64,000 nucleotides of DNA from Promethearchaeati archaeon SRVP18_Atabeyarchaeia-1 (lineage in GTDB: Archaea; Asgardarchaeota; Atabeyarchaeia; Atabeyarchaeales; Atabeyarchaeaceae), in the NCBI GenBank assembly GCA_037308085.1, contig CP147779.1, positions 2,624,001 through 2,688,000 of the forward strand, in the 5' to 3' direction. Below the pieces are notes generated by a model, which had not been told where the DNA came from, did not search any database, and worked only from the letters and a program-made list of their open reading frames with translations. The translations under genes and the position numbers were made by a program. Below are positions 1 through 36,224 of the stretch, in pieces. Positions within the stretch are counted from its first letter, which is position 1. Every line of letters begins with the position of its first letter.

Positions 1-608
1 GGTTCCATGACAACGTGTCTCCTCACATATCCTTTGAGAAACTAGATGAGGAAGCTGAGAACATTGAGCCTTTGTCCGGAGGACTTATCTGCGAGGCTGC
101 GATGACAGGCGAGCGAGCGCCCAGATGGGATCCATATGTTTCAGGGATGCTGATCGGGCTTACGCCCAAAACGACTAGCGCTCACATATATCGAGGCATG
201 ATGGAGGGCGTGGCTTTTCTGCTCAAGGCGATCATCGATGTCTGCCACGAACTCAAGATTCCGGTGAACGAACTTAGATCTGCAGGCGGTGGTGCGAAAA
301 GCAGGATCTGGCGGCAGATCAAGGCTGACGTTCTGGGCAGGGAAATAGTTGTCCCAGAAGATCCTTCGTCCACGCTGGGCGTTGCCATGCTTGCGTCCAT
401 TGGAGCTGGCGTTCATAGAGACATATTTGAAGCTGCGAGGAACATGGTGAAGATATCCGAAGTGACGAAGCCCGATCTTTCGAAGACTAGGATCTATGAG
501 GAGGGCTTCGATATCTGCAAGTCGTGCTACTCGGCCCTAAGGAATTCAAAGATCTATGAGAGGTTGGCTGAACTTCGAATGAGAGCACAGGATCAGCCTA
601 TCCAATAG
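1..608 (+). CDS. FGGY-family carbohydrate kinase (xylulokinase-like), C-terminal part, truncated by window edge
   Basis: GERAPRWDP, YRGMMEGVAF, GGGAKSRIWRQIKADVLG and LGVAMLA are FGGY_C motifs; frame is open to the window start. Confidence 0.9.
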   Translation, partial: FHDNVSPHISFEKLDEEAENIEPLSGGLICEAAMTGERAPRWDPYVSGMLIGLTPKTTSAHIYRGMMEGVAFLLKAIIDVCHELKIPVNELRSAGGGAKSRIWRQIKADVLGREIVVPEDPSSTLGVAMLASIGAGVHRDIFEAARNMVKISEVTKPDLSKTRIYEEGFDICKSCYSALRNSKIYERLAELRMRAQDQPIQ

Positions 609-722
609 GATGGATCGAAGTAGTCTGCACCCGATTATCGGAGAGTCCTTTTCAGTACGGTGAAACTCTGCCTAGGATTTCTTGCTAAGCCCATGCGCAC
701 ATCTTTGTCGAGGCTGAAAAGT

Positions 723-1067
723 CTACTTCGTTCCCCACTTCTCAATTGACTTCATTACGATGGGAACTTGCGTTGCAGCTGGTCCCCCGCCCATTACGAT
801 CGCCGCAGCACATGCCTCCATTATTTCCGGCCTCGTTGCGCCCGCCTCAATTGCCTGTCTGGTGTGGTGAACCATGCATGCCTCGCAGTGGGCGTAAACC
901 GATATCGCTACGCATATAAGCTCCTTGTGCTTGGCCGAGAGAGCGCCGTCCTTATGCACGGTTCCCAAGAGATTAGTGAAGGCTTCTCGTGTTTCGGGTA
1001 TCTCTTTTCTCATTTTCGCAAAGTAGGTTTCAAATTCTCTGAGGATTTCTTCAACCTGCTCGGGCAT
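723..1067 (-). CDS. Carboxymuconolactone decarboxylase/AhpD family protein
   Basis: LSAKHKELICVAIS..HCEAC..HH..AIEAGAT..EI.EA (CxxC, AhpD core); likely ATG at 1067. Confidence 0.9.
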   Translation of the reverse strand: MPEQVEEILREFETYFAKMRKEIPETREAFTNLLGTVHKDGALSAKHKELICVAISVYAHCEACMVHHTRQAIEAGATRPEIMEACAAAIVMGGGPAATQVPIVMKSIEKWGTK

Positions 1068-1167
1068 CTGTCGAACACACCCCTTGGTTCTTAAGCCCAA
1101 CATGAGGGCAACAATCGTGTTTTCATCTTGAAACGAACAACTATAATAAACTGCTTCTTCTCGAACC

Positions 1168-2031
1168 TCACTGTTCGCGCTGACTGGGGGAGATCATGAT
1201 TTCACTATGCTTCCTTTCAGCGATTTCCTTCGAGAGGAGAAGCTCAGACCCAAGCATCCTGCCGGTCCGGAGTTCTATGCCAAGGTTTTTGGCGAAGCCA
1301 ACCTTGATTGCATCCTTGACCTCCTCGAATGTAACGCTCCTGCCGAGCTCGGCTTCTATGCTGGTCACCTCTCTCCGATTACTCTTCACAAACCTTCTCT
1401 GCTGGGACAGGGAAGTGTAGGGCGGAACATCAAGGACCTCCCTAAGCCTTGACAAGTCAGAACTTATGAGAAGAGTGCCGTGGACAAACACTAGGGTCCG
1501 CTTGACGATTCCCGCAGTTCCTGAGATCTTCTTACCATTGATGTGTATGTAAGCGCCTTCCTGCTCGAACTCAGCATTCAGCCCAAGTGTTCTTAGTCCT
1601 TCAACCACCCCTCTGCACAAAGTCGGCGTGATTTGCGCTATTATCCCAGGGATGATGGGATTATCGCGCCTTACGGCGATTGAATAGTTTAGGTTGCCAC
1701 CGTCATTGTATACTGTTCCGCCGCCGGTAAATCGTCTCACGACTGTGAGAGAGTATTTTCTGCATGCCTCCTTGTTCACCTCTAACTCGGGGATCTGGAA
1801 CCTGCCAATTACAGCAACAGTGCCTGTGTTCCTCCAAAACCGGACGGTGTTGGGCGCTTCGCCAGTGCTGACCTTCTCGACTATGGCCTCCTCGATTCCC
1901 AAGTTGAGCACAGGATCGTCGCACTCGGTCTCCAGCAGTCGCCAAACCTGCCTCTTCCCAACCTCTTCACGCTTGTCCCCTCGAACAATTTGACTTCCTT
2001 TCTCTCCATGAAGTTTCAGCATGGCTACCAA
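1168..2031 (-). CDS. lplA: Lipoate-protein ligase family protein (catalytic N-terminal domain only)
   Basis: NLGIEEAI, VVRRFTGGGTVYND, NGKKISG, HGTLL motifs; directly downstream of E2. Confidence 0.9.
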   Translation of the reverse strand: MVAMLKLHGEKGSQIVRGDKREEVGKRQVWRLLETECDDPVLNLGIEEAIVEKVSTGEAPNTVRFWRNTGTVAVIGRFQIPELEVNKEACRKYSLTVVRRFTGGGTVYNDGGNLNYSIAVRRDNPIIPGIIAQITPTLCRGVVEGLRTLGLNAEFEQEGAYIHINGKKISGTAGIVKRTLVFVHGTLLISSDLSRLREVLDVPPYTSLSQQRRFVKSNRREVTSIEAELGRSVTFEEVKDAIKVGFAKNLGIELRTGRMLGSELLLSKEIAERKHSEIMISPSQREQ

Positions 2032-2086
2032 TTCAGTTCGACCTGAGTCCTCTGAACACGTTAGTCTAGATGCAGCATACCCACTA

Positions 2087-3397
2087 CTAGTATCTTAGCG
2101 CGAAGGGATCCTCGAGTATTTCCTTTACCCTCTGGAGAAACTCGGCTGCTGGCGCTCCGTCGATAACTCTGTGGTCAACTGCCAATGCCAAGAAGGCCAT
2201 GGGTTTGACCACGATCTGCCCTTTGTCGTCCACAACCGGTTTTTTGGTTATCTTGCCTACGGCGAGTATTCCGCTTTCAGGCGGGTTTATTATAGGTATG
2301 AATACGTCTACGCCATACATCCCTAAGCTTGTGACCGTGAATGTTCCACCAGACATCTGTTCGGGCGAGAGCTTTCCTTTCTGCGCGTTGTCTATCAGCA
2401 TGCTAAGTTCCGCGCTAATCTCGGCTATCGAGAGTTTGTTGGCGTTGTGGACAACTGGAACGATTAATCCGTCCTTTGCCGCAATTGCCACGCCCACATT
2501 GATCTCATCGAATGTCTTCAGTGTGCATTCGTCCAGAAGTGTCGAGTTCACGTTGGGGAATTCCTCGAGTGCCTTCGCCGTGACCTTCACAATTATGTCG
2601 GTGTACGACAACTTCGATCCAGTTCGCTTCTCGACTTCTGACATCAGTTTCTCTCTTAGCTTGACTATTTCAGACATGTCTGTTTCCATTATGATTGTTA
2701 TGTGAGGAGCGGTTCTTGCGCTATGGCACATTCTTTTGCCAATGACCCTCCTCGTGTGAGACAGAGTTGCAACGTTTTTTACTTTTCTTGAGTCGCTCGG
2801 GATGGCCGATGCTTCCGGCGAAGGTCTCACAACTGAAACTGCAGCACCTGATCCTGAGAACGAGAGTACATTTCGAGCAACTATTCTTCCATTTGGACCT
2901 GTTCCCGTTATCATTCGCAGGTCCAGATTACCCTCCCTAGCGATTCTTCTTGCAGCAGGCGAAGCTCTAACCCGCCCTGGGACCCCCCCGACATCGTGCA
3001 AGCCGCGAGGTGTATCAAGCCCTGTCGACATGGCACCTAGCGATGGTTGAGAAGGTGTCACCATTCTGGGCGGTTGACCCAGGGTTGCTGTAGCGGGCGC
3101 AATAGCGGCCACTTCTCTTCCAAGCTGGTTGAGGTAGCTTGAGATATCCTCTTTGGGCTCGCCAATCAACGCAATCACGGTGGATACGGGGACATCAGTA
3201 TTCTCGCCGTACATAACCTTAAGCAGAAGACCTGCTGCAGGGGAATCAAGATCCACTTCCATTTTCTCGCCAAACACTTTGACAACGACTTCCCCTTTCT
3301 CAACAGCATCTTTTTCCTTCTTATACCACTTGAGTATTGTTCCCTCCTTCATCCCGAGGCTGAAGGCCGGCAGAATGAGCGGTGTGACCATATGCAT
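2087..3397 (-). CDS. 2-oxoacid dehydrogenase E2 (dihydrolipoamide acyltransferase)
   Basis: Lipoyl domain, E3-binding domain (RASPAARRIA...GTGPNGRI), catalytic domain PIINPP...DHRVIDG. Confidence 0.95.
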   Translation of the reverse strand: MHMVTPLILPAFSLGMKEGTILKWYKKEKDAVEKGEVVVKVFGEKMEVDLDSPAAGLLLKVMYGENTDVPVSTVIALIGEPKEDISSYLNQLGREVAAIAPATATLGQPPRMVTPSQPSLGAMSTGLDTPRGLHDVGGVPGRVRASPAARRIAREGNLDLRMITGTGPNGRIVARNVLSFSGSGAAVSVVRPSPEASAIPSDSRKVKNVATLSHTRRVIGKRMCHSARTAPHITIIMETDMSEIVKLREKLMSEVEKRTGSKLSYTDIIVKVTAKALEEFPNVNSTLLDECTLKTFDEINVGVAIAAKDGLIVPVVHNANKLSIAEISAELSMLIDNAQKGKLSPEQMSGGTFTVTSLGMYGVDVFIPIINPPESGILAVGKITKKPVVDDKGQIVVKPMAFLALAVDHRVIDGAPAAEFLQRVKEILEDPFALRY

Positions 3398-3557
3398 CGG
3401 ATCTCCAGAGTCTCTTTCAGCTAAGCGAATACATTCACTTGCATTAAAAGATTAACTGTACGACTCGATGAGCAGAAGAACCGCTGCGTGATGATAGTTT
3501 CATTACGAGTTTGCTAAAGAGTTAAATTAACATTTCCCCTTATAGTTCAGAGAATTC

Positions 3558-4535
3558 ATGAAGGGTGTCGATATCCAAATGGGGAACGTCGTGGTGGCGC
3601 TTGGCGATGCAAATATAGATATCTGCATGATTGGCGGCGGACCTCCTCGGCCCGGGCATGAGACCCTGGTTCAAGACATGGTGATCTCGCCCGCAGGCTC
3701 CACTGGATACTTTTCAATGGCAATTTCAAAGCTTGGAGACGAGTGCCGATTCGTAGGCCGCCTTGGAGGGGACTACTTTGGCAGATATGTTCTCGACAAG
3801 ATGAAGTCATTCGGCATAACGACAAATTACGTCAGAATTGATCCCGACGTCCCGACCGGTGTCACCGTCTCGGTCGTCTCAGAGGGAGGCGAGAGAGCGC
3901 TTGTATCTTACTTAGGTCCCACTGAGCTCTTCAACATGGCTGACATTGATGAAAGGGCGTTAATGGGGGCGAGGCATCTTCATATTGGCGGCCTTCCGCT
4001 TCTAAAGGCTTTGCAGCCCTCTGTCCCAGTTCTCTTCATGAGGGCGCGGAAAGCAGGGATGACTACCTCGCTGGATACGGGATGGGATCCAAGTGGGCGT
4101 TGGGACATCAATGAGGCCCTTCAGTGGGTGGACATCTTCCTCCCAAACGAGGAAGAGGTAGAAGCCATCACGAATGAGAAAAACATCGGCCGAGCCGCAT
4201 CGAAGCTTCTTGCTAAGGGTCCGTCCACCATTGTCATTAAGCGAGGAGCTCTCGGATGTACCGTGGCCAATCGCGAGAGAAGCGTGGACGTTCCTGCCTT
4301 CAAGGTTAATCCTGTAGACACTACTGGTGCTGGAGACGCATTCGACGCGGGATTCATATTCGGCTTCCTCAGAGGGAAGCCTTTGCTGGAATGTGCAGAA
4401 TACGGGAACGCTGCAGGCGCGCTGAAAACGCTGAAGCCAGGTTGCGATGGCCTGCCAGATCTCAGATCCGTTGAGTCACTGATAGGCGGTGGCAAGATAC
4501 CAGAGCTTGGCGCAGTTAGAACGGCAAGTCGCTAG
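3558..4535 (+). CDS. PfkB-family carbohydrate kinase
   Basis: PNEEE, VIKRGALG, VDTTGAGDAFDAGF signature. Confidence 0.95.
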   Translation: MKGVDIQMGNVVVALGDANIDICMIGGGPPRPGHETLVQDMVISPAGSTGYFSMAISKLGDECRFVGRLGGDYFGRYVLDKMKSFGITTNYVRIDPDVPTGVTVSVVSEGGERALVSYLGPTELFNMADIDERALMGARHLHIGGLPLLKALQPSVPVLFMRARKAGMTTSLDTGWDPSGRWDINEALQWVDIFLPNEEEVEAITNEKNIGRAASKLLAKGPSTIVIKRGALGCTVANRERSVDVPAFKVNPVDTTGAGDAFDAGFIFGFLRGKPLLECAEYGNAAGALKTLKPGCDGLPDLRSVESLIGGGKIPELGAVRTASR

Positions 4536-4765
4536 TTACCAGTTAGTTTCTCCTGTCAAAGAGAGTAGCGCGCTCCATTTCAGAGGAGAGAATTGGTTCC
4601 AGAAGGTGTATAGGGAGCGCGATGCCTGCGTGGCAGCAATAATAACAAGGCTTTTTAGCAACAAAGCGCACATAGACTACGGTATTCGCCTAAGGGCTAT
4701 CGCGAAGTCTGTTTCCAGGCAGTGACCTGACTTGACTTTCAGATTAGTGTAGCTAGGGGAACACT

Positions 4766-5650
4766 ATGGCTAACGAGTGTCTCGCCGATTTCGTAAAGAA
4801 ACGGCGCAGGATTCGTGAAAAGAAAAAGGGAATCGAGGAAGAGATAGCCAATCAAATAAAGGGCAGCAAAGAATTTGAAGAGCTCAAGACAGCCCTCGGG
4901 GAAGGAAGCATGGAGAAGGCGAAATCGGTCCTTGCCCACTTTGCGAACTATGCTCCAAGTGACTACGTCACTAGGATATCGGTTCAGGATGTAGTATCCA
5001 AAAAAACACTGTGCAAAGTCGGGCAGGCGGTGTCCTCCTTGAAACCGGCGATAATGGAGCTTGCCCTTCCGTGCGATGGATCCTGCATACTCAAGGTTGA
5101 GGCGTCGCCGGCCGCCGATGTCGATTCCTCCTTCAGCGTTGTCTGGCTTGGCTTGGAGGCATCTGGGAAATCCAGTCTGATTGAGAGGATAAGGCAAGAC
5201 GAGTTCATCTCTCCCGCGCCCACAATAGGACTTAACGTCGCATCCTCTGTCCTCGAAGGAATCAAGATAGTGAACTGTGACCTCTCAGGACACAAATCAT
5301 TCAGAAGCATTTGGGATTCCTTGATTGTTGGCAATCCTGACATACTGGTCTATGTAATAGATGGCTCAGAACATTCCCAGCTAGATGAAGCCCAGAAATT
5401 GCTGACAGGCTATGTTCTGAATACCGAACTCTTAAAGGGCATTCCAATGCTAGTTGTACTGAGTAAGCAGGACGTCGAGGGAGCAATTAAGGGAGAACAA
5501 ATACTGGCTAATCTGAACTTGCCTCAGTTGATATGTGATCGAGAATGGAAGCTAGTTCAAGCTAGTGCGAAGACAGGCGAAGGCATTTCAGATATGTTGG
5601 GATGGATGTTTGAACAAATCAGACTGAAAAAGGGTGTGGGCTCCGCGTGA
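4766..5650 (+). CDS. Arf-family small GTPase with ~120-aa N-terminal extension
   Basis: G1 GLEASGKS, G2 PTIGLN, G3 DLSGH followed by FRSIW, G4 SKQD, G5 SAKTGEG, terminal LGWM helix typical of Arf/Arl. Confidence 0.9.
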   Translation: MANECLADFVKKRRRIREKKKGIEEEIANQIKGSKEFEELKTALGEGSMEKAKSVLAHFANYAPSDYVTRISVQDVVSKKTLCKVGQAVSSLKPAIMELALPCDGSCILKVEASPAADVDSSFSVVWLGLEASGKSSLIERIRQDEFISPAPTIGLNVASSVLEGIKIVNCDLSGHKSFRSIWDSLIVGNPDILVYVIDGSEHSQLDEAQKLLTGYVLNTELLKGIPMLVVLSKQDVEGAIKGEQILANLNLPQLICDREWKLVQASAKTGEGISDMLGWMFEQIRLKKGVGSA

Positions 5651-6081
5651 GCGTTGGAACCTTTATCGCCAAAGCAGTGGATCCAAGCAAGAAGTTATTT
5701 ACAGTTCCTTTCAATACACTTGATGAGCCAATGGAAACAGTCAAAGAGATGGCTGCAAAGGTTTTTGAGTTTACGACGTTCATATTGTCGAAGAGGTATC
5801 CGGGTCAGGATAAACCCACTTCGAATGAGGTAACGCTAGACCTACCCAAGGGTTACTATGGATACGCGATCTCATTCAGCAGCAAGTCTGGTCAGAACCT
5901 CATTCTCGGCATAGCAGTGAAGTCAGTCTCAATGGCTCTTTTCGCCTACGCAGTTGATGCATCTAGGGCCAGGATTATCGCTGTCGTTGATAGGCTCAAG
6001 GATGATCTTCCAGTTCGAGTTGGGCTCATAAGAGATCTCCATCTTACGCTGGAAAGAGAATTCGAGATATTCAAGCTCTAG
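5647..6081 (+). CDS. Hypothetical protein, predicted longin/uDENN-like fold
   Basis: 4-nt GTGA overlap with the GTPase stop; apparent b-b-a-b-b-b-a-a pattern by eye. The CDS is well supported; the fold is inference. Confidence 0.65.
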   Translation: MSVGTFIAKAVDPSKKLFTVPFNTLDEPMETVKEMAAKVFEFTTFILSKRYPGQDKPTSNEVTLDLPKGYYGYAISFSSKSGQNLILGIAVKSVSMALFAYAVDASRARIIAVVDRLKDDLPVRVGLIRDLHLTLEREFEIFKL

Positions 6082-6159
6082 ATCTCACGTACGAGAGGAT
6101 GGATCTTGGATGCAGTAGCGCGTAGTTTTCACCATTTGAATCCTAGAGAGCCCATCTAG

Positions 6160-7497
6160 CTACCAGAGATCGGCCGGGAATGTCATCACCGGTTTCTTAG
6201 GGAAGTATCTCTCAAATAGCTCAGAAATAGAACCAGCCTCCGAACCACGCAGTGAGAGCCTGACCTTCCCTCCGTTGACTGATTCCGTGAAGCCCTTTGC
6301 TCCGAAGAGCAACGACGCGAAAGACTCGTGATCTGAAAACACGACCGTGCTCCGACCCTCTTCGCCATCAGTAACGGATGCGACTCCTCCATCAACCTTC
6401 ACGGTCGCGCTTTGCCCTCCCATTATCCTTATCGTAATTGAATCTCGCGGACTTCCAAGATCCTGAGGAATCGTCTTCTTCGTCTGCGGTACGCTGGAAA
6501 AGGCAGATTCCATTACACCCTTGAGGCTAATAGTCTGGAACATGAATACTCCAGCTCCCGTTAATGGCGTGGAGCCCTTCTTGAAGAGCTTGTCATTCAG
6601 AGTATTCTCGGACGAGTAGATCATAATCGCCAACGGCTTCTGGCTGCTAATGTCTGATAACATGCGCCTTGCAAGAGGCACACCTGCCTCGCTTTCTCGA
6701 CCAGGCAGTGTTAGAACCTCGCATATATGACCAAAACCGTCACTCTTCGCTATGCAGGACATAGCGTACCCGATGATCCCGTCATCCCCTCGTTCAGCCA
6801 CCAATATGTTCCCTCGGGTGGATGCCTCTTCATAGAAGGGACACTCATAGACGAACCTCCTCCTGAATTTCGATTTCCATGTCTCCCAGTTTCTTACGAC
6901 CAGGCCATTGTATCCTCCATAATTCTTCTCATATATCCCGAGAAGCGTTCGATCATCCTTCTCATCAGACTCCCTGACCTCAACTGGCCGCTCCGACCTT
7001 TCTTCCTTAGCCTCATTACTGCCCAATATTGGCGGTGTCTTCCAGTCTCTAAATAGAAGCAAGGCAGAGTAAACATCAGTGAAACCAAGTCTGACATATA
7101 TCCTGTGCGCAGGAATCCTAGCACCCGTGAACAAAGCCGAAGAATTAAACCCCTTCTGTCTGGCGATGTCCAGAGCATGCGTTAGAAGTCTCGTCGATAT
7201 CCCTGATCCTCTATGATCTTTCAGGGTCGCGACATTAGCTATTCCAGCGACTCTCAGATCGACCCCTGCACCGACCTTCAGCCTCCTGTCGACCAGCTGG
7301 ACATGGGACACTATTCTTCCGTCTTTCTCAGCCACGAAAACAAGCTCTTTGCGGTATCCATGGTCGTACTCAAAGGTCTCCAGCCACTTGCTGCCTGAGA
7401 GACCGAAAGACTTGAAGGATCCGAAGCACTCGTTAAGAGCCGTGGCTATCTCATCCTCATCTCCCTCGCAATATGTTCTGATAACTGCGTCACTCAA
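6160..7497 (-). CDS. Eis-like GNAT acetyltransferase with tandem GNAT and C-terminal SCP2-like domain
   Basis: VAGIANVATLKDHRGSGIS acetyl-CoA motif, IYVRLGF; TTG start at 7497 after GGAGGGAG. Confidence 0.85.
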   Translation of the reverse strand: MSDAVIRTYCEGDEDEIATALNECFGSFKSFGLSGSKWLETFEYDHGYRKELVFVAEKDGRIVSHVQLVDRRLKVGAGVDLRVAGIANVATLKDHRGSGISTRLLTHALDIARQKGFNSSALFTGARIPAHRIYVRLGFTDVYSALLLFRDWKTPPILGSNEAKEERSERPVEVRESDEKDDRTLLGIYEKNYGGYNGLVVRNWETWKSKFRRRFVYECPFYEEASTRGNILVAERGDDGIIGYAMSCIAKSDGFGHICEVLTLPGRESEAGVPLARRMLSDISSQKPLAIMIYSSENTLNDKLFKKGSTPLTGAGVFMFQTISLKGVMESAFSSVPQTKKTIPQDLGSPRDSITIRIMGGQSATVKVDGGVASVTDGEEGRSTVVFSDHESFASLLFGAKGFTESVNGGKVRLSLRGSEAGSISELFERYFPKKPVMTFPADLW

Positions 7498-7627
7498 TTG
7501 TGTCAGTCTCCCTCCCTGCAAAACATGCAAGTAATGTTTTTGCAGGTCACTTAGCCCGCACTCAAGATGGCCACAGGAGCGGCTCAACAGTAAATAGGAT
7601 AAGACTTAGCTCTGCACGACTAGGTCC

Positions 7628-8620
7628 TCAGGTTACAACTTCTTTCACTGCTTGAATGATCTTCTTCTCGTCGGGTATGAAGCTACTTTCGAGTACGGGA
7701 CTGAATGGGACTGGCGTATCAGGTGCCGTCACCCTCTTTAGGGGGGCGTCGAGGTAGTCGAACGCCTCTTCGAGCACAATAGCCGCGATCTCGGCGCTGA
7801 TACCCGCCGTCTTGCAGTCTTCGCTCACTATGACGGCGCGTCCTGTCTTCTTAACCGACTCCCCTATTGTCTTTCTATCGAAGGGAACGAGTGTTCTTGG
7901 GTCAATGACTTCAGCGTTTATGCCCTGACCCGTCAGTTCCTTCGCAGCGTTAAGGGCCTTTGGAACCATGTAGAGCACTGGTATTATCGTTACATCTTTT
8001 CCCTCCTTCTTGACATCCGCCTTGCCGAAGGGAATCGTGTAGTCCTCATCAGGCACGGCGCCTTTGACCCCGTAGACCAGTTTATGCTCGGCGAAAAGCA
8101 CGGGGCTATTTCCTCTTATGGCAGTCTTCATGAGACCCTTCGCATCAGCTGGCGTCGATGCAACAACAACCTTGAGCCCAGCTGCATGCATGAACCATGA
8201 TAGATAAGTTGATGAGTGATGAGCCGCAACCTGTGTGCCGGCGCCGAACGGGGTCCTGATAACCACTGGAACACTGACCTGGCTGCCAAACATGTAGTGA
8301 ATCTTGGCAGCCTGGTTTACGATCTGATCAACAGCTAGCGCTATAAGGTCGCCAAACATGATTTCGACGACGGGTCTCATCCCAGTCATGGCCGCACCCA
8401 CTGCGGCACCTATGAATGTGTTTTCCGAGATTGGCGTATCCCGCACCCTTTCGTCTCCGAATTCATCAGCTAAGCCTTGAGTCACCTTGAACGCACCTTG
8501 CCAGTACTTGCCGATGTCTTCGCCCATGAGAAAAACGCGATTATCTCTCTTCATTTCCTCGCGGAGGGCTTCCCTGATTGCGTCTCGGACGGTTATCTCT
8601 CTCATTTCCTTGTTCACCAC
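7628..8620 (-). CDS. pdhB: 2-oxoacid (pyruvate/acetoin) dehydrogenase E1 beta subunit
   Basis: GEDIG, RVRDTPISE, GMRPVVEIMF, FDYLDAP. Confidence 0.95.
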   Translation of the reverse strand: MVNKEMREITVRDAIREALREEMKRDNRVFLMGEDIGKYWQGAFKVTQGLADEFGDERVRDTPISENTFIGAAVGAAMTGMRPVVEIMFGDLIALAVDQIVNQAAKIHYMFGSQVSVPVVIRTPFGAGTQVAAHHSSTYLSWFMHAAGLKVVVASTPADAKGLMKTAIRGNSPVLFAEHKLVYGVKGAVPDEDYTIPFGKADVKKEGKDVTIIPVLYMVPKALNAAKELTGQGINAEVIDPRTLVPFDRKTIGESVKKTGRAVIVSEDCKTAGISAEIAAIVLEEAFDYLDAPLKRVTAPDTPVPFSPVLESSFIPDEKKIIQAVKEVVT

Positions 8621-8626
8621 GAATTC

Positions 8627-9589
8627 TCAGTCCGCGTAGACGTCTTCGGTAACTGTGCTTGGATCTGGTTGTGGGGCATTCTTGGCAAAGTTGGCCGCTT
8701 CCTCAACCAGCGACTTCACTTCGTCCTCAATCTTCTTCAATTCATCTTCTTTCGCAATTCTTTCTTCCAGTAGCCGGTCCCGCATTCTCTTCACAGCGTC
8801 TCTCTTGATCCACTCATCAACCTCTTCCTTCGGTCTGTAGGTTGCCGCGTCGAATCTAGAGTGACCTTTTAGCCTGTAGGTCTTGCATTCAAGCAGTGTC
8901 GGGCCTTCGCCTTTCCTTGCTCGTTTGACGGCTTCTATTGCGCATCTGTAGACATCAAGAACGTCATTGCCATCAGCAACTGCCCCGGGGATACCGTATG
9001 CGCTCGCCCGATCTGCAACGTTGCTGACGACCATCGCAATGTTCTGGCGGGTTCCCATTGCGTAGAGGTTGTTCTCGCATACGAAGATAACTGGAAGTTT
9101 CCAGACTGATGCCAGGTTGAGCGCTTCGTGGAATGTGCCTTGGTTTGATGCTCCCTCCCCGAAGAATACTGCAACCACTTGATCAGTTTTTCTGAGCCTT
9201 ATCGAGAGCCCGGCCCCCACGGCCAGTGGCAGACCCGAGCCAACTACTCCGGTGGCGCCAAGGATGCCTTTGCTGAAGTCAGTTATGTGCATCGATCCGC
9301 CTTTACCCTTGCAGTACCCCGTTGCTTTTCCCATGAGTTCAGCCATCATTCGGTCGAGCTTTGCACCCTTTGCTACACAATGCCCGTGTCCTCGATGGGT
9401 GCTCTGAATCAAGTCGTCCTCCCGGAGAGCGGAGCATACGCCCACGGCGGTTGCCTCTTCGCCTAGGTATAGGTGGATTGTTCCTGGAATCAGGTTCTGC
9501 CCAAAAAGCTCGTAGACCTTCTCCTCGAAGAGGCGTGCTTCAACCAGTTTTCTATACATGTGCAGAAATGCGTCTTTTGTCAGCTTCAT
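8627..9589 (-). CDS. pdhA: 2-oxoacid (pyruvate/acetoin) dehydrogenase E1 alpha subunit
   Basis: STHRGHGH, GKGGSMH, TPP motif GEGA..24..ENN, TYRLKGHS; start uncertain (ORF open to 9685). Confidence 0.95.
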   Translation of the reverse strand: MKLTKDAFLHMYRKLVEARLFEEKVYELFGQNLIPGTIHLYLGEEATAVGVCSALREDDLIQSTHRGHGHCVAKGAKLDRMMAELMGKATGYCKGKGGSMHITDFSKGILGATGVVGSGLPLAVGAGLSIRLRKTDQVVAVFFGEGASNQGTFHEALNLASVWKLPVIFVCENNLYAMGTRQNIAMVVSNVADRASAYGIPGAVADGNDVLDVYRCAIEAVKRARKGEGPTLLECKTYRLKGHSRFDAATYRPKEEVDEWIKRDAVKRMRDRLLEERIAKEDELKKIEDEVKSLVEEAANFAKNAPQPDPSTVTEDVYAD

Positions 9590-9760
9590 GTCTGTTCCAT
9601 GAACCTTCACAGTCGCAGTACTCACAAGCATCCCCTCGATTGGCGTAAGTAGCTTTGCCGTTGAAGATTTGTTGTGAACCTTCACCGATAAAGCGTTCAG
9701 ACTTAAAAGTCCTTTGTTTGAGTTGGCAGATAATTCAACGATGGTTTTCGCATAGCCTAG

Positions 9761-10915
9761 TCAGGGATACAATTCCAGTAGATGTTGTACCGTGTAGGTT
9801 GTGTAGAGTCCCATTGCTTTGAGCGGATTCTGAGTTTGCTTCAGGAAGTCCACTTGAATGTCCAAGTGCTTTCCCAGTTCTGCCTTCCATCTCTTCTCAT
9901 ATAGGGAAAGTGAGCTGGCCGATGTATCGTTGGATATCGCTGCTTCAGATGCTACCTCGCCTGCAGCGATTCCTGACCTCACTGCAAAGTAGATGCCTTC
10001 GCCAGTGACCGCTCCGACCATCCCTGCGCTATCACCCGCCAAGAGTACGCCGCTACCATAAGATGGCACAAAGGTTCCTGAGAATGGGACATAAGCTCCT
10101 CTCACCTTGTCAATGAGCTCGGCACCTTTCAGAAGCTTCAGCGCGATCGCATTACCCTTCACAAAATCGTTGAAGTATGTAAGTGGCTTCTTCTTCATGC
10201 TTGTCGTGGCGCTTCCCGTGCCGACTGTGAGAATTCCCCTCTTGGGGAAAATCCAGTGGTAGCCCATGAGATCACGTTCATAGAAGAGGTATAACGTATT
10301 CCCGATTCGCTCGTCTATTTCCCCGTCAGGAAGTCTGTAGTGAGCCTCCGTGCAATAGGCGCATCTGTCACGCCACTTCTGATGCTCGACTTCGAACCAC
10401 TTGTTCCAGAAGCCCGCGGTTCTGGCAACGGTGCTAGAGATCCCGTCGCATCCGATTACAACATTGCCCAATATAACGCCTTTATCTCCCGTCCTGACTC
10501 CACGGACAATCTTTTCACTGTCGAGTACGACGGAGTTGACGGAGGTTGATTGCATCAGAGTTGCCCCAGCTTCAACCGCCATGTTGGCAAGGTGGTGGTC
10601 AAACTTCGATCTCATGACCATACGCCACGCAATGTTCTCTGGCCATGGAACTGGCGCCAGTTTCCTTTCTCCAGCGACGACCTGGGCTTTTTCTATGGTT
10701 CTCTCAATGATGCTACGGGGTATGCCGAGCTTCTTGATCACCCAAGCGTTGACTCCGCCGCCGCAGAGTTTTTCTCTAGGAAGTCTCGCCATGTCAATAA
10801 GGACTGTTCTCGCGCCTCCTTTGGCAGCGCTCCACGCTGCCATGCTTCCTGCGGGTCCGGCGCCAACCACGACTACGTCAAACTTCCTCTCCGGCATGGA
10901 GACCAAGACCTTCAA
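9761..10915 (-). CDS. Geranylgeranyl reductase family FAD-dependent oxidoreductase
   Basis: VVGAGPAG, KLCGGG, GYHWIFPK, GDSAG...GEGI motifs. Confidence 0.9.
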   Translation of the reverse strand: MKVLVSMPERKFDVVVVGAGPAGSMAAWSAAKGGARTVLIDMARLPREKLCGGGVNAWVIKKLGIPRSIIERTIEKAQVVAGERKLAPVPWPENIAWRMVMRSKFDHHLANMAVEAGATLMQSTSVNSVVLDSEKIVRGVRTGDKGVILGNVVIGCDGISSTVARTAGFWNKWFEVEHQKWRDRCAYCTEAHYRLPDGEIDERIGNTLYLFYERDLMGYHWIFPKRGILTVGTGSATTSMKKKPLTYFNDFVKGNAIALKLLKGAELIDKVRGAYVPFSGTFVPSYGSGVLLAGDSAGMVGAVTGEGIYFAVRSGIAAGEVASEAAISNDTSASSLSLYEKRWKAELGKHLDIQVDFLKQTQNPLKAMGLYTTYTVQHLLELYP

Positions 10916-11592
10916 TCGGTCGGGACACTTTTCAGGTTGAGTCTCAGTAGTAGTGAGAGGGCGGCGTTGAAAGCGCCTCTCTGGGCATCAGCAGGAGTGT
11001 TTCCCACCCCCACGATCAGTATATCTCCTTCCTGAAGCTTGAACTCTGAGAGGAGTCCTTTCAGAGTCTTCTTGTCAACAACTTTGTCTGACACGGATGG
11101 AACTCTGAGTGCGCCCTCCTCAAAAATCAGCGTTGTGGCGCCGATCGCTCCTGCAAGGAGCGCCCTGTCACGTTGTTCTATTCCACTTTCTACGTGGGTA
11201 GCTGCGTTTCTTAGCTGCATCCCGTAGGCGGACTCTGCTAGCGAGATTCCAGGTGCGAGGACTTCCTTGTGGTCTACTATCTGTTCTCTAATTCTGTGAT
11301 TCCATTGCCTTCCTTTATCAGTGAGAATATGACCTTTGTTCCCTACGCGCACAACCAGCTTATTCTGCTCGAGGCGCCTCAGCAAGGTCTTTGTTGGGCC
11401 TTCCTTGAGACCAAGATCTCTCATCAGAGTAGTTCGGCTCAGTGTTCCAGTTTCTTCCCCCATGAAAACCAGTGCAGCTAGGACATCGCATCTTTCAAAG
11501 GAAGGGAGAACTGTGAGCGAAGTCATGACGGTGTCCAGCAGATTGGCTAGCGGTGACGAAGGAGCGACTGAAGCGCCTGTCAATGTGTACAC
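10912..11592 (-). CDS. Winged-HTH protein with DUF4443-like C-terminal domain (putative regulator)
   Basis: SR..LM.DLGLKEG..KTLLRRL, GHILT.KG, GIEQRD.AL..GA.GATTL pattern of the archaeal DUF4443 family. Confidence 0.75.
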   Translation of the reverse strand: MYTLTGASVAPSSPLANLLDTVMTSLTVLPSFERCDVLAALVFMGEETGTLSRTTLMRDLGLKEGPTKTLLRRLEQNKLVVRVGNKGHILTDKGRQWNHRIREQIVDHKEVLAPGISLAESAYGMQLRNAATHVESGIEQRDRALLAGAIGATTLIFEEGALRVPSVSDKVVDKKTLKGLLSEFKLQEGDILIVGVGNTPADAQRGAFNAALSLLLRLNLKSVPTD

Positions 11593-11703
11593 CTTGACGA
11601 GAGATAATCGATCCTCCTTATTTATTATGCTGCCTTGCAGGACTGGAGCAGTAACCCTCGTCTCATTGAGTTGACGCTTGAATTCGATACCTTTTCGCGT
11701 TCA

Positions 11704-35819: not shown

Positions 35820-36224
35820 TCACTTTGCGGGTTTTTTCTTAGGCGTTTCCCCCAACACCTTGAGCACTGCTTCAGCAGCTCTGTTGGTTTCGTCTATCAG
35901 GATCCCCAGCTTAGCCTCCCGTTTTGCCATCAAAGTGACAACGTTGGTATCGCCCACCCTGCCGATCACTATGTACCCGTCTTGACACTTTATGAAGACC
36001 TGCTCAAGAGTGCCCAGCTGAAGAACTTCTACGCTCATCTTGCCCAAGTTGAGCAGGGTTGCCGTTATGGCAGCAACGATTTCCTGCGGTGAGTCCCTCT
36101 GCAGGGCATTGGCAATCATTATCCCATCATAGCTGACAAGCGCCGCTCCCTCTATCTCAGCCGTCTGAGACGCGACTCCTCTCAGCACATCCTTAAGCTT
36201 ATCCAAATCGAACGAGGAACTCAT
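35820..36224 (-). CDS. Roadblock/LC7 (MglB-like) domain protein
   Basis: IEGAALVSYDGIMIA, VAAITA.LL.LG, LG.LEQVFIK..DGYIVI, AKLG. Confidence 0.9.
   Translation of the reverse strand: MSSSFDLDKLKDVLRGVASQTAEIEGAALVSYDGIMIANALQRDSPQEIVAAITATLLNLGKMSVEVLQLGTLEQVFIKCQDGYIVIGRVGDTNVVTLMAKREAKLGILIDETNRAAEAVLKVLGETPKKKPAK

What the first reader, a model, noticed from the sequence alone, without database searches (positions are those of the whole stretch)
4766..6081. Arf/Sar1/SRbeta-hybrid GTPase coupled to a predicted longin-fold partner: candidate ancestral GTPase-longin module
Seen: the GTPase has Arf-type G1/G2 (GLEASGKS, PTIGLN). Switch II reads DLSGH, with His where Arf has the catalytic Gln, and G4 is SKQD rather than NKQD. 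A ~120-aa N-terminal extension carries a basic KKRRRIREKKK patch. The next 144-aa ORF overlaps the stop (GTGA) and reads as b-b-a-b-b-b-a-a. Known: Sar1 (DLGGH) and SRbeta (DxPGH) have His at this position, and SRbeta binds the longin (SRX) domain of SRalpha. Longin domains also occur in Arf-recruited COPI/AP coats and in DENN GEFs. Inference: a two-gene prokaryotic prototype of the eukaryotic small-GTPase/longin trafficking switch, inserted in a metabolic locus.
Basis: partly seen in the sequence, partly recalled or inferred. Interest (0 to 1): 0.78.

Follow-up and report, generated by a model that had tools for sequence, protein, structure and literature searches.

The report
Arf-like GTPase with longin partner gene
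An Asgard archaeon (Atabeyarchaeia) has a conserved two-gene unit: an Arf-family GTPase with an unusual catalytic histidine, then a small protein with no sequence relatives that is predicted to fold as a longin domain. It is a lineage-specific example of the known GTPase/longin theme, not an ancestral prototype.

Summary
Window 4766-5650 encodes a 294-aa protein whose C-terminal 170 residues are an Arf-family G domain (Pfam Arf 110 bits). It has GLEASGKS, PTIGLN, DLSGH and SKQD motifs, preceded by a 120-aa extension with a polybasic start. The 144-aa ORF 5647-6081 starts inside GTGA.

The ORF has no Pfam, NCBIfam or PDB sequence match. With an 18-sequence alignment AlphaFold2 gives a confident (pLDDT 88) b-b-a-b-b-b-a-a fold. 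The best structural matches are longin domains: Lst4/FNIP, a Lokiarchaeal longin, C9orf72 and FLCN (Z 11-12). SRX is a weak match.

The pair is tightly linked in every related locus. Both the ORF and the N-terminal extension are found only in one Asgard family (3 of 3 genomes, 0 of 397 others). A neighbouring clade has a similar extended GTPase with Gln and its own ~150-aa downstream ORF. Another has what looks, by motifs only, like a longin fused to the G domain.

The His is derived in this lineage, so it is probably convergent with Sar1/SRbeta. The FLCN-type arginine finger is not conserved. Binding and GAP/GEF activity are untested. GTPase-longin fusions and GTPase-roadblock operons in Asgards are already published, so this is a new variant of a known kind.

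The parts
4644..4664 (+). Putative archaeal promoter (BRE/TATA-like AAGGnTTTTTAGCAACA), about 110 nt upstream of the GTPase start
   Evidence: The best conserved block of the 230-nt PfkB-GTPase spacer across 7 loci. Its promoter function is inferred.
4756..4760 (+). Shine-Dalgarno-like GGGA(A/T)C, 6-10 nt before the ATG
   Evidence: GGGA is invariant in all 7 aligned loci. Its function is inferred.
4766..5650 (+). Gene for the 294-aa Arf-family GTPase (P0001)
   Evidence: ORF. Pfam Arf 1.2e-31 over residues 120-285. 27 full-length relatives at 51-74% identity, plus one 236-aa hit.
4766..5128 (+). N-terminal extension, residues 1-121. It has a polybasic start (KKRRRIREKKK, nt 4796-4828), then a predicted helical part and a beta-rich part. 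The fold is unassigned.
   Evidence: Conserved in the family: R13, R14, G22, E24, P64, Y67, P94, P115. Found only in Asgard family f1. No PDB or Pfam sequence match. Not related to ORF2 by hhalign. The ESM Atlas model resembles N-terminal parts of bacterial sensor proteins, which is a lead only.
5129..5647 (+). Arf-type G domain, residues 122-294. G1 is nt 5150-5173, G2 PTIGLN is 5219-5236, G3/switch II DLSGH is 5279-5293, G4 SKQD is 5462-5473.
   Evidence: H176 is invariant in the clade. It is the only His at this position among about 24 small GTPases of the genome.
5647..6081 (+). Gene for a 144-aa longin-fold protein with no sequence relatives outside the family (P0002/P0003). It is translationally coupled to the GTPase gene (GTGA).
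   Evidence: ORF. Purifying selection. AF2 pLDDT 87.7, pTM 0.83. Longin matches at Z 10.9-11.8. Only 4 representative clusters in 1.84 billion proteins. Found only in family f1 among 400 Asgard genomes.

Best explanation
The two genes form a bicistronic unit with its own promoter. They encode an Arf-family small GTPase and its cognate longin-fold regulator.

The GTPase keeps all nucleotide-binding motifs but has His where Arf has the catalytic Gln. As in Sar1, SRbeta and EF-Tu, this predicts low intrinsic hydrolysis that an outside partner must trigger (established knowledge of those families; inference here).

The 144-aa longin, probably as a dimer like other roadblock/longin platforms, is proposed to dock on the switch face of the GTPase and set its nucleotide state. 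I lean towards a hydrolysis-promoting role of the MglB kind, which reorients the GTPase's own catalytic residue rather than supplying an arginine finger. The reason is that the FLCN-type arginine is not conserved. An exchange-factor role is nearly as likely.

The polybasic N-terminal extension may place the GTPase on anionic membrane.

Shown: the gene pair, its conservation, the Arf-type G domain, the His, and a confident longin fold prediction. Inferred: binding, the direction of regulation, dimerisation and membrane association.
For: Linkage:
- GTPase and ORF2 are adjacent on the same strand in all 8 loci examined, the window included. They overlap by 4 nt in six, by 1 nt in one, and lie about 8 nt apart in one. 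Partner identity ranges from 40 to 81%.
- In three further cases a GTPase relative and an ORF2 relative have longest contigs of the same length, so they probably share a contig.
- Both genes occur in 3 of 3 genomes of family f1 and in none of 397 other Asgard genomes.
- A conserved TATA-like block and an SD-like GGGA lie upstream of the GTPase, not between the two genes.

Fold:
- ORF2 is under purifying selection.
- Its model is confident (pLDDT 87.7) with longin topology.
- The best structural matches are longins that act on small GTPases: Lst4 Z 11.8, Lokiarchaeal longin 8yqg Z 11.4, C9orf72 Z 11.1, FLCN Z 10.9, then CPLANE, TRAPP and Mon1-Ccz1. The ESM Atlas gives TM 0.71-0.73 to an Asgard cluster and to a C9orf72/Folliculin cluster.

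Relatives:
- The nearest GTPase clade (f7) has the same layout: an extended Arf-like GTPase followed 25-45 nt downstream by a 151-173-aa ORF.
- A further relative (P0051) carries N-terminal GP and ARG motifs like those of Asgard FLCN-type longins, fused to the Arf G domain.

Literature: roadblock/longin dimers are conserved GTPase platforms, and GTPase-longin fusions exist in Asgards (PMC10933270, PMC11914678, 10.1101/2020.10.19.343400).
Against: - There is no direct evidence of binding.
- ORF2 has no sequence-level relation to any characterised regulator.
- The arginine finger of FLCN/SMCR8/NPRL2-type longins lies in the b4-b5 loop (ARGG in the Asgard homologues). It has no conserved counterpart in ORF2, where this loop reads SKSGQN, GPSGEN, GPKRVR or DVSGEN.
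- The GP motif is only partly kept: D-P in the window, G-P or G-S in others.
- Known longin GAPs and GEFs are usually heterodimers or larger complexes, and no second longin is encoded in the unit.
- The N-terminal extension has an unknown fold. It could itself be the regulatory element, or what ORF2 binds.
- In the cultured Lokiarchaeon, GTPase genes are generally not in operons with their regulators (PMC10933270), so adjacency is not a general rule in Asgards.
Confidence: 0.5

Rival explanations
1. [quoted passage not shown] Most eukaryotic longin platforms work this way (TRAPP, Mon1-Ccz1, DENN, CPLANE, BLOC-3). It would stabilise the nucleotide-free state rather than promote hydrolysis.
For: Mon1-Ccz1, TRAPP subunits, DENND1, CPLANE and BLOC-3 are all among the structural matches at Z 8-9.7. 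There is no conserved arginine finger. The literature describes roadblock/longin platforms as acting mainly as GEFs (PMC10933270).
Against: The top four matches (Z 10.9-11.8) are the FNIP/FLCN/C9orf72 group and a Lokiarchaeal longin, not the GEF longins. Longin GEFs are heteromeric, and only one longin is encoded here. The His substitution argues that hydrolysis is the step needing outside help (inference).
Confidence: 0.2
2. The pair is an SRbeta/SRX-like or coat-like effector pair: the longin binds only the GTP form and is thereby recruited, without changing the nucleotide cycle.
For: His at the switch II position is shared with SRbeta and Sar1. SRX is a longin-like fold and appears in the Foldseek list. 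AP and COPI sigma/zeta longins match at Z 7-8.5.
Against: SRPRB scores 24.4 bits, below its cut-off, against 110 bits for Arf. SRX is rank 34 with TM 0.30. The GTPase has no N-terminal transmembrane anchor (sequence). ORF2 has no second domain that could serve as an output. The His is derived within a Gln-bearing clade.
Confidence: 0.12
3. The two genes are neighbours by inherited gene order only. The longin works with another of the roughly 24 small GTPases of the genome, or in a process unrelated to GTPases.
For: PfkB, with no evident link to GTPases, is equally conserved upstream. So synteny in this narrow lineage is conserved beyond functional units. All evidence for coupling is genomic.
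Against: Start/stop overlap is kept at 40-55% protein identity. PfkB is separated by a 200-235-nt spacer that holds the conserved promoter-like block. The two genes have the same phyletic range. A parallel arrangement occurs in the f7 clade without PfkB.
Confidence: 0.15

Closest known systems
Asgard ArfR / AArf GTPases (HodArfR1 and GerdArfR1, PDB 8OUK-8OUN; 10.1101/2024.02.28.582541; PMC11914678)
   Same: An Arf-family G domain. Pfam Arf scores 110 bits, and phmmer to 8oul/8oun scores 82 bits. It has the Arf-type TIGxN G2 motif and an interswitch of the same length by eye. In the tree it groups with ~190-aa WDIGGQ Asgard proteins. Diverse N-terminal domains in AArfs are already noted (PMC11914678).
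   Different: His replaces the catalytic Gln. There is no amphipathic helix directly before the G domain; instead there is a 120-aa lineage-specific extension. The W of WDxGGQ is replaced by C. Placement relative to eukaryotic Arfs and to the ArfR/ArfL split was not tested with named references.
FLCN-FNIP, C9orf72-SMCR8 and GATOR1 longin GAP complexes, and Asgard FLCN/SMCR8-type longins (PMC12290439)
   Same: These are the best structural matches of ORF2 (Lst4, C9orf72, FLCN; Z 10.9-11.8). C9orf72-SMCR8 acts on Arf GTPases. ORF2 has a [D/G]-P dipeptide in the b1-b2 loop, where the GP motif sits.
   Different: There is no sequence-profile relation (hhalign probability 0.3%). Pfam Folliculin is not found in any of the 3 family genomes. 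There is no conserved arginine finger, no DENN part, and no second longin subunit.
MglA-MglB and other prokaryotic GTPase-roadblock operons, including the Asgard LAMTOR1-like/Rab-like/DENN operon (10.1101/2020.10.19.343400)
   Same: A small GTPase is encoded next to a small protein of the roadblock/longin superfamily. The same genome has MglA-like GTPases flanked by roadblock genes. MglB promotes hydrolysis without an arginine finger.
   Different: The partner has longin topology, not roadblock: no N-terminal helix and two C-terminal helices. Roadblocks match at Z 7-8 against 11-12 for longins. The GTPase is Arf-type, not MglA- or Rab-type.
SRbeta-SRX (PDB 1NRJ) and Sar1
   Same: His at the switch II catalytic position. 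SRX is a longin-like fold bound by a GTPase of the Arf family.
   Different: SRPRB is below its cut-off. SRX is a weak structural match. There is no transmembrane anchor. Sar1 is not among the best 60 PDB sequence matches. The His is lineage-derived.

Membership tests
Arf family (Pfam PF00025; ArfR sensu Vargova et al.) | G-domain profile match above the curated threshold over the whole domain | tested here: met
   110 bits against a cut-off of 22.3, profile positions 12-174 of 174. The best PDB hits are Arl3, Arl1, Asgard ArfR and Arf1/6.
Arf family (Pfam PF00025; ArfR sensu Vargova et al.) | Catalytic Gln in switch II (DxGGQ) | tested here: not met
   D172-L-S-G-H176. The His is invariant in all 28 family members.
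Arf family (Pfam PF00025; ArfR sensu Vargova et al.) | N-terminal amphipathic helix directly preceding the G domain, coupled to the interswitch toggle | tested here: not met
   The 20 residues before b1 (ILKVEASPAADVDSSFS) are not amphipathic. A 120-aa extension stands there instead. The extreme N-terminus is polybasic, with low hydrophobicity. The toggle itself cannot be tested here.
Arf family (Pfam PF00025; ArfR sensu Vargova et al.) | Phylogenetic placement inside the ArfR + eukaryotic Arf clade | tested here: inconclusive
   The tree of Asgard relatives and own-genome paralogues groups it with Arf-like WDIGGQ proteins at 86/85 support. No eukaryotic or labelled ArfR/ArfL references could be included.
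SRbeta (PF09439) | Profile match above threshold and an N-terminal transmembrane anchor | tested here: not met
   24.4 bits against a cut-off of 25. There is no hydrophobic segment in residues 1-121.
Sar1 | Closest sequence relationship to Sar1 among Arf-family members | tested here: not met
   No Sar1 chain is among the 60 best PDB matches, which are all Arl/Arf/ArfR. Only the His is shared.
Longin domain (fold) | b-b-a-b-b-b-a-a topology, five-stranded sheet, no N-terminal helix | tested here: met
   AF2 model, pLDDT 87.7, elements in that order. This is a prediction, not a solved structure.
Longin domain (fold) | Structural similarity to solved longins clearly above other folds | tested here: met
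   Z 10.9-11.8 over 123-132 residues to four longins. Roadblocks score Z 6.5-8.0. The tool's stated background is Z about 7-8. The top Foldseek hits are FNIP2 and Lst4.
Longin domain (sequence families PF13774, PF11704, PF04086 and others) | Profile match | tested here: not met
   No Pfam or NCBIfam hit at E <= 1. A profile search against PDB found nothing.
FLCN/SMCR8/NPRL2-type GAP longins | GP motif at the end of the b1-b2 loop | tested here: inconclusive
   Positions 12-13 read D-P in the window's clade and G-P or G-S in other family members; one sequence starts after this point. The placement was judged from predicted secondary structure, not by superposition.
FLCN/SMCR8/NPRL2-type GAP longins | Conserved arginine finger in the b4-b5 loop (ARGG in the Asgard homologues) | tested here: not met
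   The loop at residues 79-84 is SKSGQN, GPSGEN, GPKRVR, GPNHQK or DVSGEN. No Arg is conserved.
MglA/MglB-type GTPase-regulator operon | A small GTPase gene adjacent to and co-oriented with a roadblock-superfamily gene, conserved across relatives | tested here: met
   The partner is of the longin, not the roadblock, subtype.
MglA/MglB-type GTPase-regulator operon | Physical complex and an effect on the nucleotide cycle | not testable with these tools
   This needs biochemistry.

The most novel reading that the evidence does not exclude
A subgroup of Asgard Arf-family GTPases may have been coupled to an FLCN/C9orf72-like longin from its origin. The subgroup would comprise the His clade of Atabeyarchaeia, the Gln clade of family f7, and the fused form in family f17. 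The longin would sometimes be fused and sometimes be a fast-evolving downstream gene.

This would make it the archaeal forerunner of the eukaryotic Arf / longin-GAP relationship (C9orf72-SMCR8 acting on Arf). The Atabeyarchaeial version would be a natural experiment: a Sar1-like His and an arginine-less longin would replace the Gln plus arginine-finger mechanism.
Probability: 0.15. Interest if true: 0.75.

Novelty: new variant of a known kind. Interest (0 to 1): 0.48.

Why it matters
Asgard genomes hold dozens of small GTPases and dozens of roadblock/longin proteins, but it is rarely clear which regulator belongs to which GTPase. Tran et al. (PMC10933270) state that the genome layout of the cultured Lokiarchaeon does not help with this.

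Here a conserved, translationally coupled pair offers a ready-made matched couple for biochemistry. It is an Arf-type GTPase with a natural Gln-to-His change and a minimal single-domain longin. It could test directly whether a lone archaeal longin acts as a GAP, a GEF or an effector of an Arf-family protein, and how a His-type catalytic centre is triggered.

It also shows that confident longin domains hide among proteins that look unique at the sequence level. Published longin counts in Asgards are therefore likely to be underestimates.

It does not change the current picture of eukaryogenesis: the association between GTPases and longins in Asgards is already established.

Tried and rejected
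- Co-folding of the full-length GTPase (alignment A4) with ORF2 (A3): ipSAE 0.01 and 0.05, verdict 'no answer'. This is not evidence either way.
- First AF2 run of ORF2 with 8 close sequences: pLDDT 40, unusable. It was superseded by the 18-sequence run.
- Sequence searches for ORF2 relatives: the word-index search found only proteins at >=74% identity. The exhaustive profile search found 4 representative clusters, all 144-159 aa, so no fused form is detectable. The ESM Atlas feature search gave no usable hit. The profile search against PDB gave nothing.
- hhalign of ORF2 against Asgard FLCN-type longins: probability 0.3%.
- hhalign of ORF2 against the f7 downstream ORFs: collinear over 121 columns, but E 0.15.
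- hhalign of ORF2 against the P0051 N-terminus: nothing. Homology among these small proteins is therefore not shown.
- N-terminal extension: no relation to ORF2, to PDB or, taken alone, to the f7 extension (E 0.13). I considered and dropped the idea that it is a second longin pairing with ORF2, because its predicted order of elements (a-a-b-b-b-b, read by eye) does not fit.
- RNA evidence: no RNA holder was listed.
- Rfam scan of 4300-6400: no match.
- The G-domain word-index search gave no named eukaryotic sequences, so no Arf/Sar1/SRbeta reference phylogeny could be built.
Full report
**What is there.** The window lies in a closed 2.81-Mb genome. Its nearest named relative in the genome collection is Candidatus Atabeyarchaeum deiterrae, an Asgard archaeon from wetland soil (PMC11291895).

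ORF 4766-5650 (+) encodes 294 aa. ORF 5647-6081 (+) encodes 144 aa and starts with a GTG embedded in the GTGA that ends the first gene. Their residue numbers and the corresponding window coordinates are given in the observation check and the parts list.

**The GTPase.** Pfam assigns residues 120-285 to the Arf family: 110 bits, against Ras 27.7 and SRPRB 24.4, the last just below its cut-off. The best solved relatives are Arl3 (97 bits), Arl1, the Asgard ArfR structures 8OUL/8OUN (82 bits) and Arf1/6. No Sar1 chain is in the best 60.

Twenty-eight family sequences at 51-74% identity were aligned, nearly all 290-301 aa. G1, the switch I Thr, DxSGH and a long stretch of switch II (SGHKSFRSIWDSLIVG) are nearly or fully invariant. 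G4 is NKQD in most, and the window's SKQD is a minority variant.

The genome has about 24 other small GTPases, and none has His at this position. In 400 Asgard genomes the nearest G domains outside the family are only 32-37% identical, and all carry Gln.

In a maximum-likelihood tree, the His clade (support 100/98) sits next to a Gln-bearing clade of extended GTPases from family f7 (90/42, weak). Next comes a 321-aa protein from family f17, all within a group of ~190-aa WDIGGQ Arf-like proteins (86/85). The His is therefore a derived, lineage-specific substitution. Its likeness to Sar1/SRbeta is most simply convergence. The description 'Arf/Sar1/SRbeta hybrid' holds for motifs only.

The 120-aa N-terminal extension is conserved within the family but was found in no other Asgard family. 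It has no sequence match in Pfam or PDB. It is not the amphipathic helix that defines Arf proteins (10.1101/2024.02.28.582541). Its fold remains open; the ESM Atlas model gives only a vague lead.

**The downstream protein.** ORF2 has no Pfam, NCBIfam or PDB sequence match. An exhaustive profile search of 1.84 billion representative proteins found four clusters, all 144-159 aa. Among 400 Asgard genomes it occurs only in the window's family, in 3 of 3 genomes.

It is a real gene. Relatives keep the frame, the length and an ATG at the same place. Synonymous sites are saturated while nonsynonymous change is low.

With 8 close sequences AlphaFold2 failed. With 18 sequences spanning 40-81% identity it gave pLDDT 87.7 and pTM 0.83, with the order b-b-a-b-b-b-a-a.

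An all-against-all structural comparison ranks these first: the Lst4 (FNIP) longin (Z 11.8), the longin of a Lokiarchaeal roadblock-longin protein (11.4), C9orf72 (11.1) and FLCN (10.9). CPLANE, TRAPP, AP5, Mon1-Ccz1 and DENND1 follow at Z 8-9.7, then roadblocks at Z 6.5-8.0. Foldseek and the ESM Atlas agree. SRX is only Foldseek rank 34 with TM 0.30.

**Is it a GAP-type longin?** Asgard proteins matching Pfam Folliculin occur in 59 of 251 Asgard genomes sampled, but in none of the three family genomes. They show the published GP motif in the b1-b2 loop and an ARGG arginine-finger motif in the b4-b5 loop (PMC12290439).

ORF2 has D-P, G-P or G-S at the first site, followed by an invariant K/R15. 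Its b4-b5 loop carries no conserved arginine. Profile-profile comparison is not significant. ORF2 therefore resembles the non-catalytic partners (FNIP/Lst4, C9orf72) or a generic longin. Membership in the catalytic GAP-longin family is not met.

**Linkage.** In eight loci, the window included (L009-L014 and L017, at 40-81% ORF2 identity), the 290-301-aa GTPase is followed directly by the 144-aa ORF. The two overlap by 4 nt in six, by 1 nt in one, and lie about 8 nt apart in one.

PfkB lies upstream in all of them, separated by 200-235 nt. That spacer contains a conserved TATA-like block (window 4644-4664), and an invariant GGGA lies before the start codon. Downstream neighbours differ between loci. 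The pair thus looks like its own bicistronic unit. 'Inserted in a metabolic locus' is a description of the neighbours, not evidence of an event.

**Beyond the family.** Family f7 genomes encode 306-341-aa Arf-like GTPases with Gln and an Arf-like MFNFFKKLI start. Each is followed 25-45 nt downstream by a 151-173-aa ORF with no Pfam match. Read by eye, this ORF again looks b-b-a-b-b-b-a-a.

It is restricted to f7. It aligns collinearly with ORF2 but without significance (E 0.15), and weakly with Asgard FLCN-type longins (E 0.013). The full-length GTPases align collinearly from residue 25 to the end.

The f17 relative P0051 has RGP and WARGKK motifs, spaced as in FLCN-type longins, in front of a 162-bit Arf domain. 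These observations suggest that this branch of Arf-like GTPases goes with longins, either fused or adjacent, and that the partner evolves fast. However, the folds of the f7 and f17 pieces were not tested, and the tree support is weak.

**Mechanism.** Shown: a conserved, tightly coupled gene pair; an intact Arf-type nucleotide-binding site with His for Gln; and a confident longin model.

Inferred: the longin binds the GTPase and sets its nucleotide state. The basis is the general role of roadblock/longin platforms (PMC10933270) and the dependence of His-type GTPases on outside activation. I lean towards an MglB-like, arginine-independent stimulation of hydrolysis. An exchange-factor role is close behind. 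An SRX-like effector role, or mere synteny, is less likely. Nothing here measures binding.

**Novelty.** Already published:
- Asgard Arf-related GTPases (10.1101/2024.02.28.582541; PMC11914678).
- Asgard longins, including FLCN-like ones (PMC12290439).
- GTPase-longin and GTPase-roadblock fusions (PMC10933270; 10.1101/2020.10.19.343400).
- A conserved roadblock/Rab-like/DENN operon (10.1101/2020.10.19.343400).
- The genome paper for Atabeyarchaeia lists longin, roadblock and GTPase domains only in bulk (PMC11291895).

New here:
- This specific translationally coupled Arf-type/longin pair.
- A longin that had escaped sequence-based annotation.
- The clade-wide His.
- The lineage-specific N-terminal domain.

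That makes it a new variant of a known kind. It is a useful matched pair for experiments, but not a prototype of the eukaryotic switch.

Noticed in passing
window 35946-36167 (-): A Roadblock/LC7 gene (PF03259, 49 bits), one of 16 roadblock hits in this genome.
   Followed up: no
own genome G000:C1 734.7-736.6 kb and 1677.9-1679.2 kb (outside the window): MglA-like small GTPases flanked by two or three roadblock genes. GTPase-roadblock clusters therefore do occur in this Asgard genome, unlike what was reported for the cultured Lokiarchaeon.
   Followed up: partly
own genome G000:C1 354415-355314, 1481727-1482608, 2437279-2438280: Three Rab-like GTPases with 130-145-aa N-terminal extensions. 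The last begins MIRGAYILRRNDGTILFHKAY, which reads like the first two strands of a longin. They form one clade in the tree.
   Followed up: no
loci L068-L088 (Asgard family f9): A conserved tandem of two different Arf-like GTPase genes (about 182 aa with DLGGQ, then 187-190 aa with WDIGGQ). They are 0-15 nt apart in at least 15 genomes. This could be a heterodimeric pair.
   Followed up: no
L093 (genome G128, family f17) 237-2469 (-): P0051 has a putative FLCN-type longin (RGP and WARGKK motifs) fused to an Arf G domain. It is followed directly by a 416-aa RagA-like GTPase (P0050, Gtr1_RagA 93 bits) with a lysine-rich N-terminus.
   Followed up: partly
loci L067, L078, L082 (family f7): Extended Arf-like GTPases with an Arf-style N-terminal MFNFFKKLI helix and a family-restricted ~150-aa downstream ORF. 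This layout parallels the window's pair.
   Followed up: partly
window 4536-4765: A 230-nt spacer between PfkB and the GTPase gene, of conserved length (200-235 nt) in relatives. It contains a conserved AAGGnTTTTTAGCAACA block about 110 nt before the start, which implies a long 5' leader. There is no Rfam match. The 78-aa ORF 4489-4725 listed there has no family hit and is probably spurious.
   Followed up: partly
window 1-11600: The neighbourhood reads: FGGY kinase (3-608), CMD (723-1103, -), LplA-type lipoate ligase (1168-2031, -), 2-oxoacid dehydrogenase E2 (2087-3397, -), PfkB kinase (3558-4535), 475-aa GNAT acetyltransferase (6160-7587, -), E1 beta and E1 alpha (7628-9685, -), FAD-dependent geranylgeranyl-reductase-like protein (9761-10915, -), DUF4443 protein (10912-11592, -).
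   Followed up: partly
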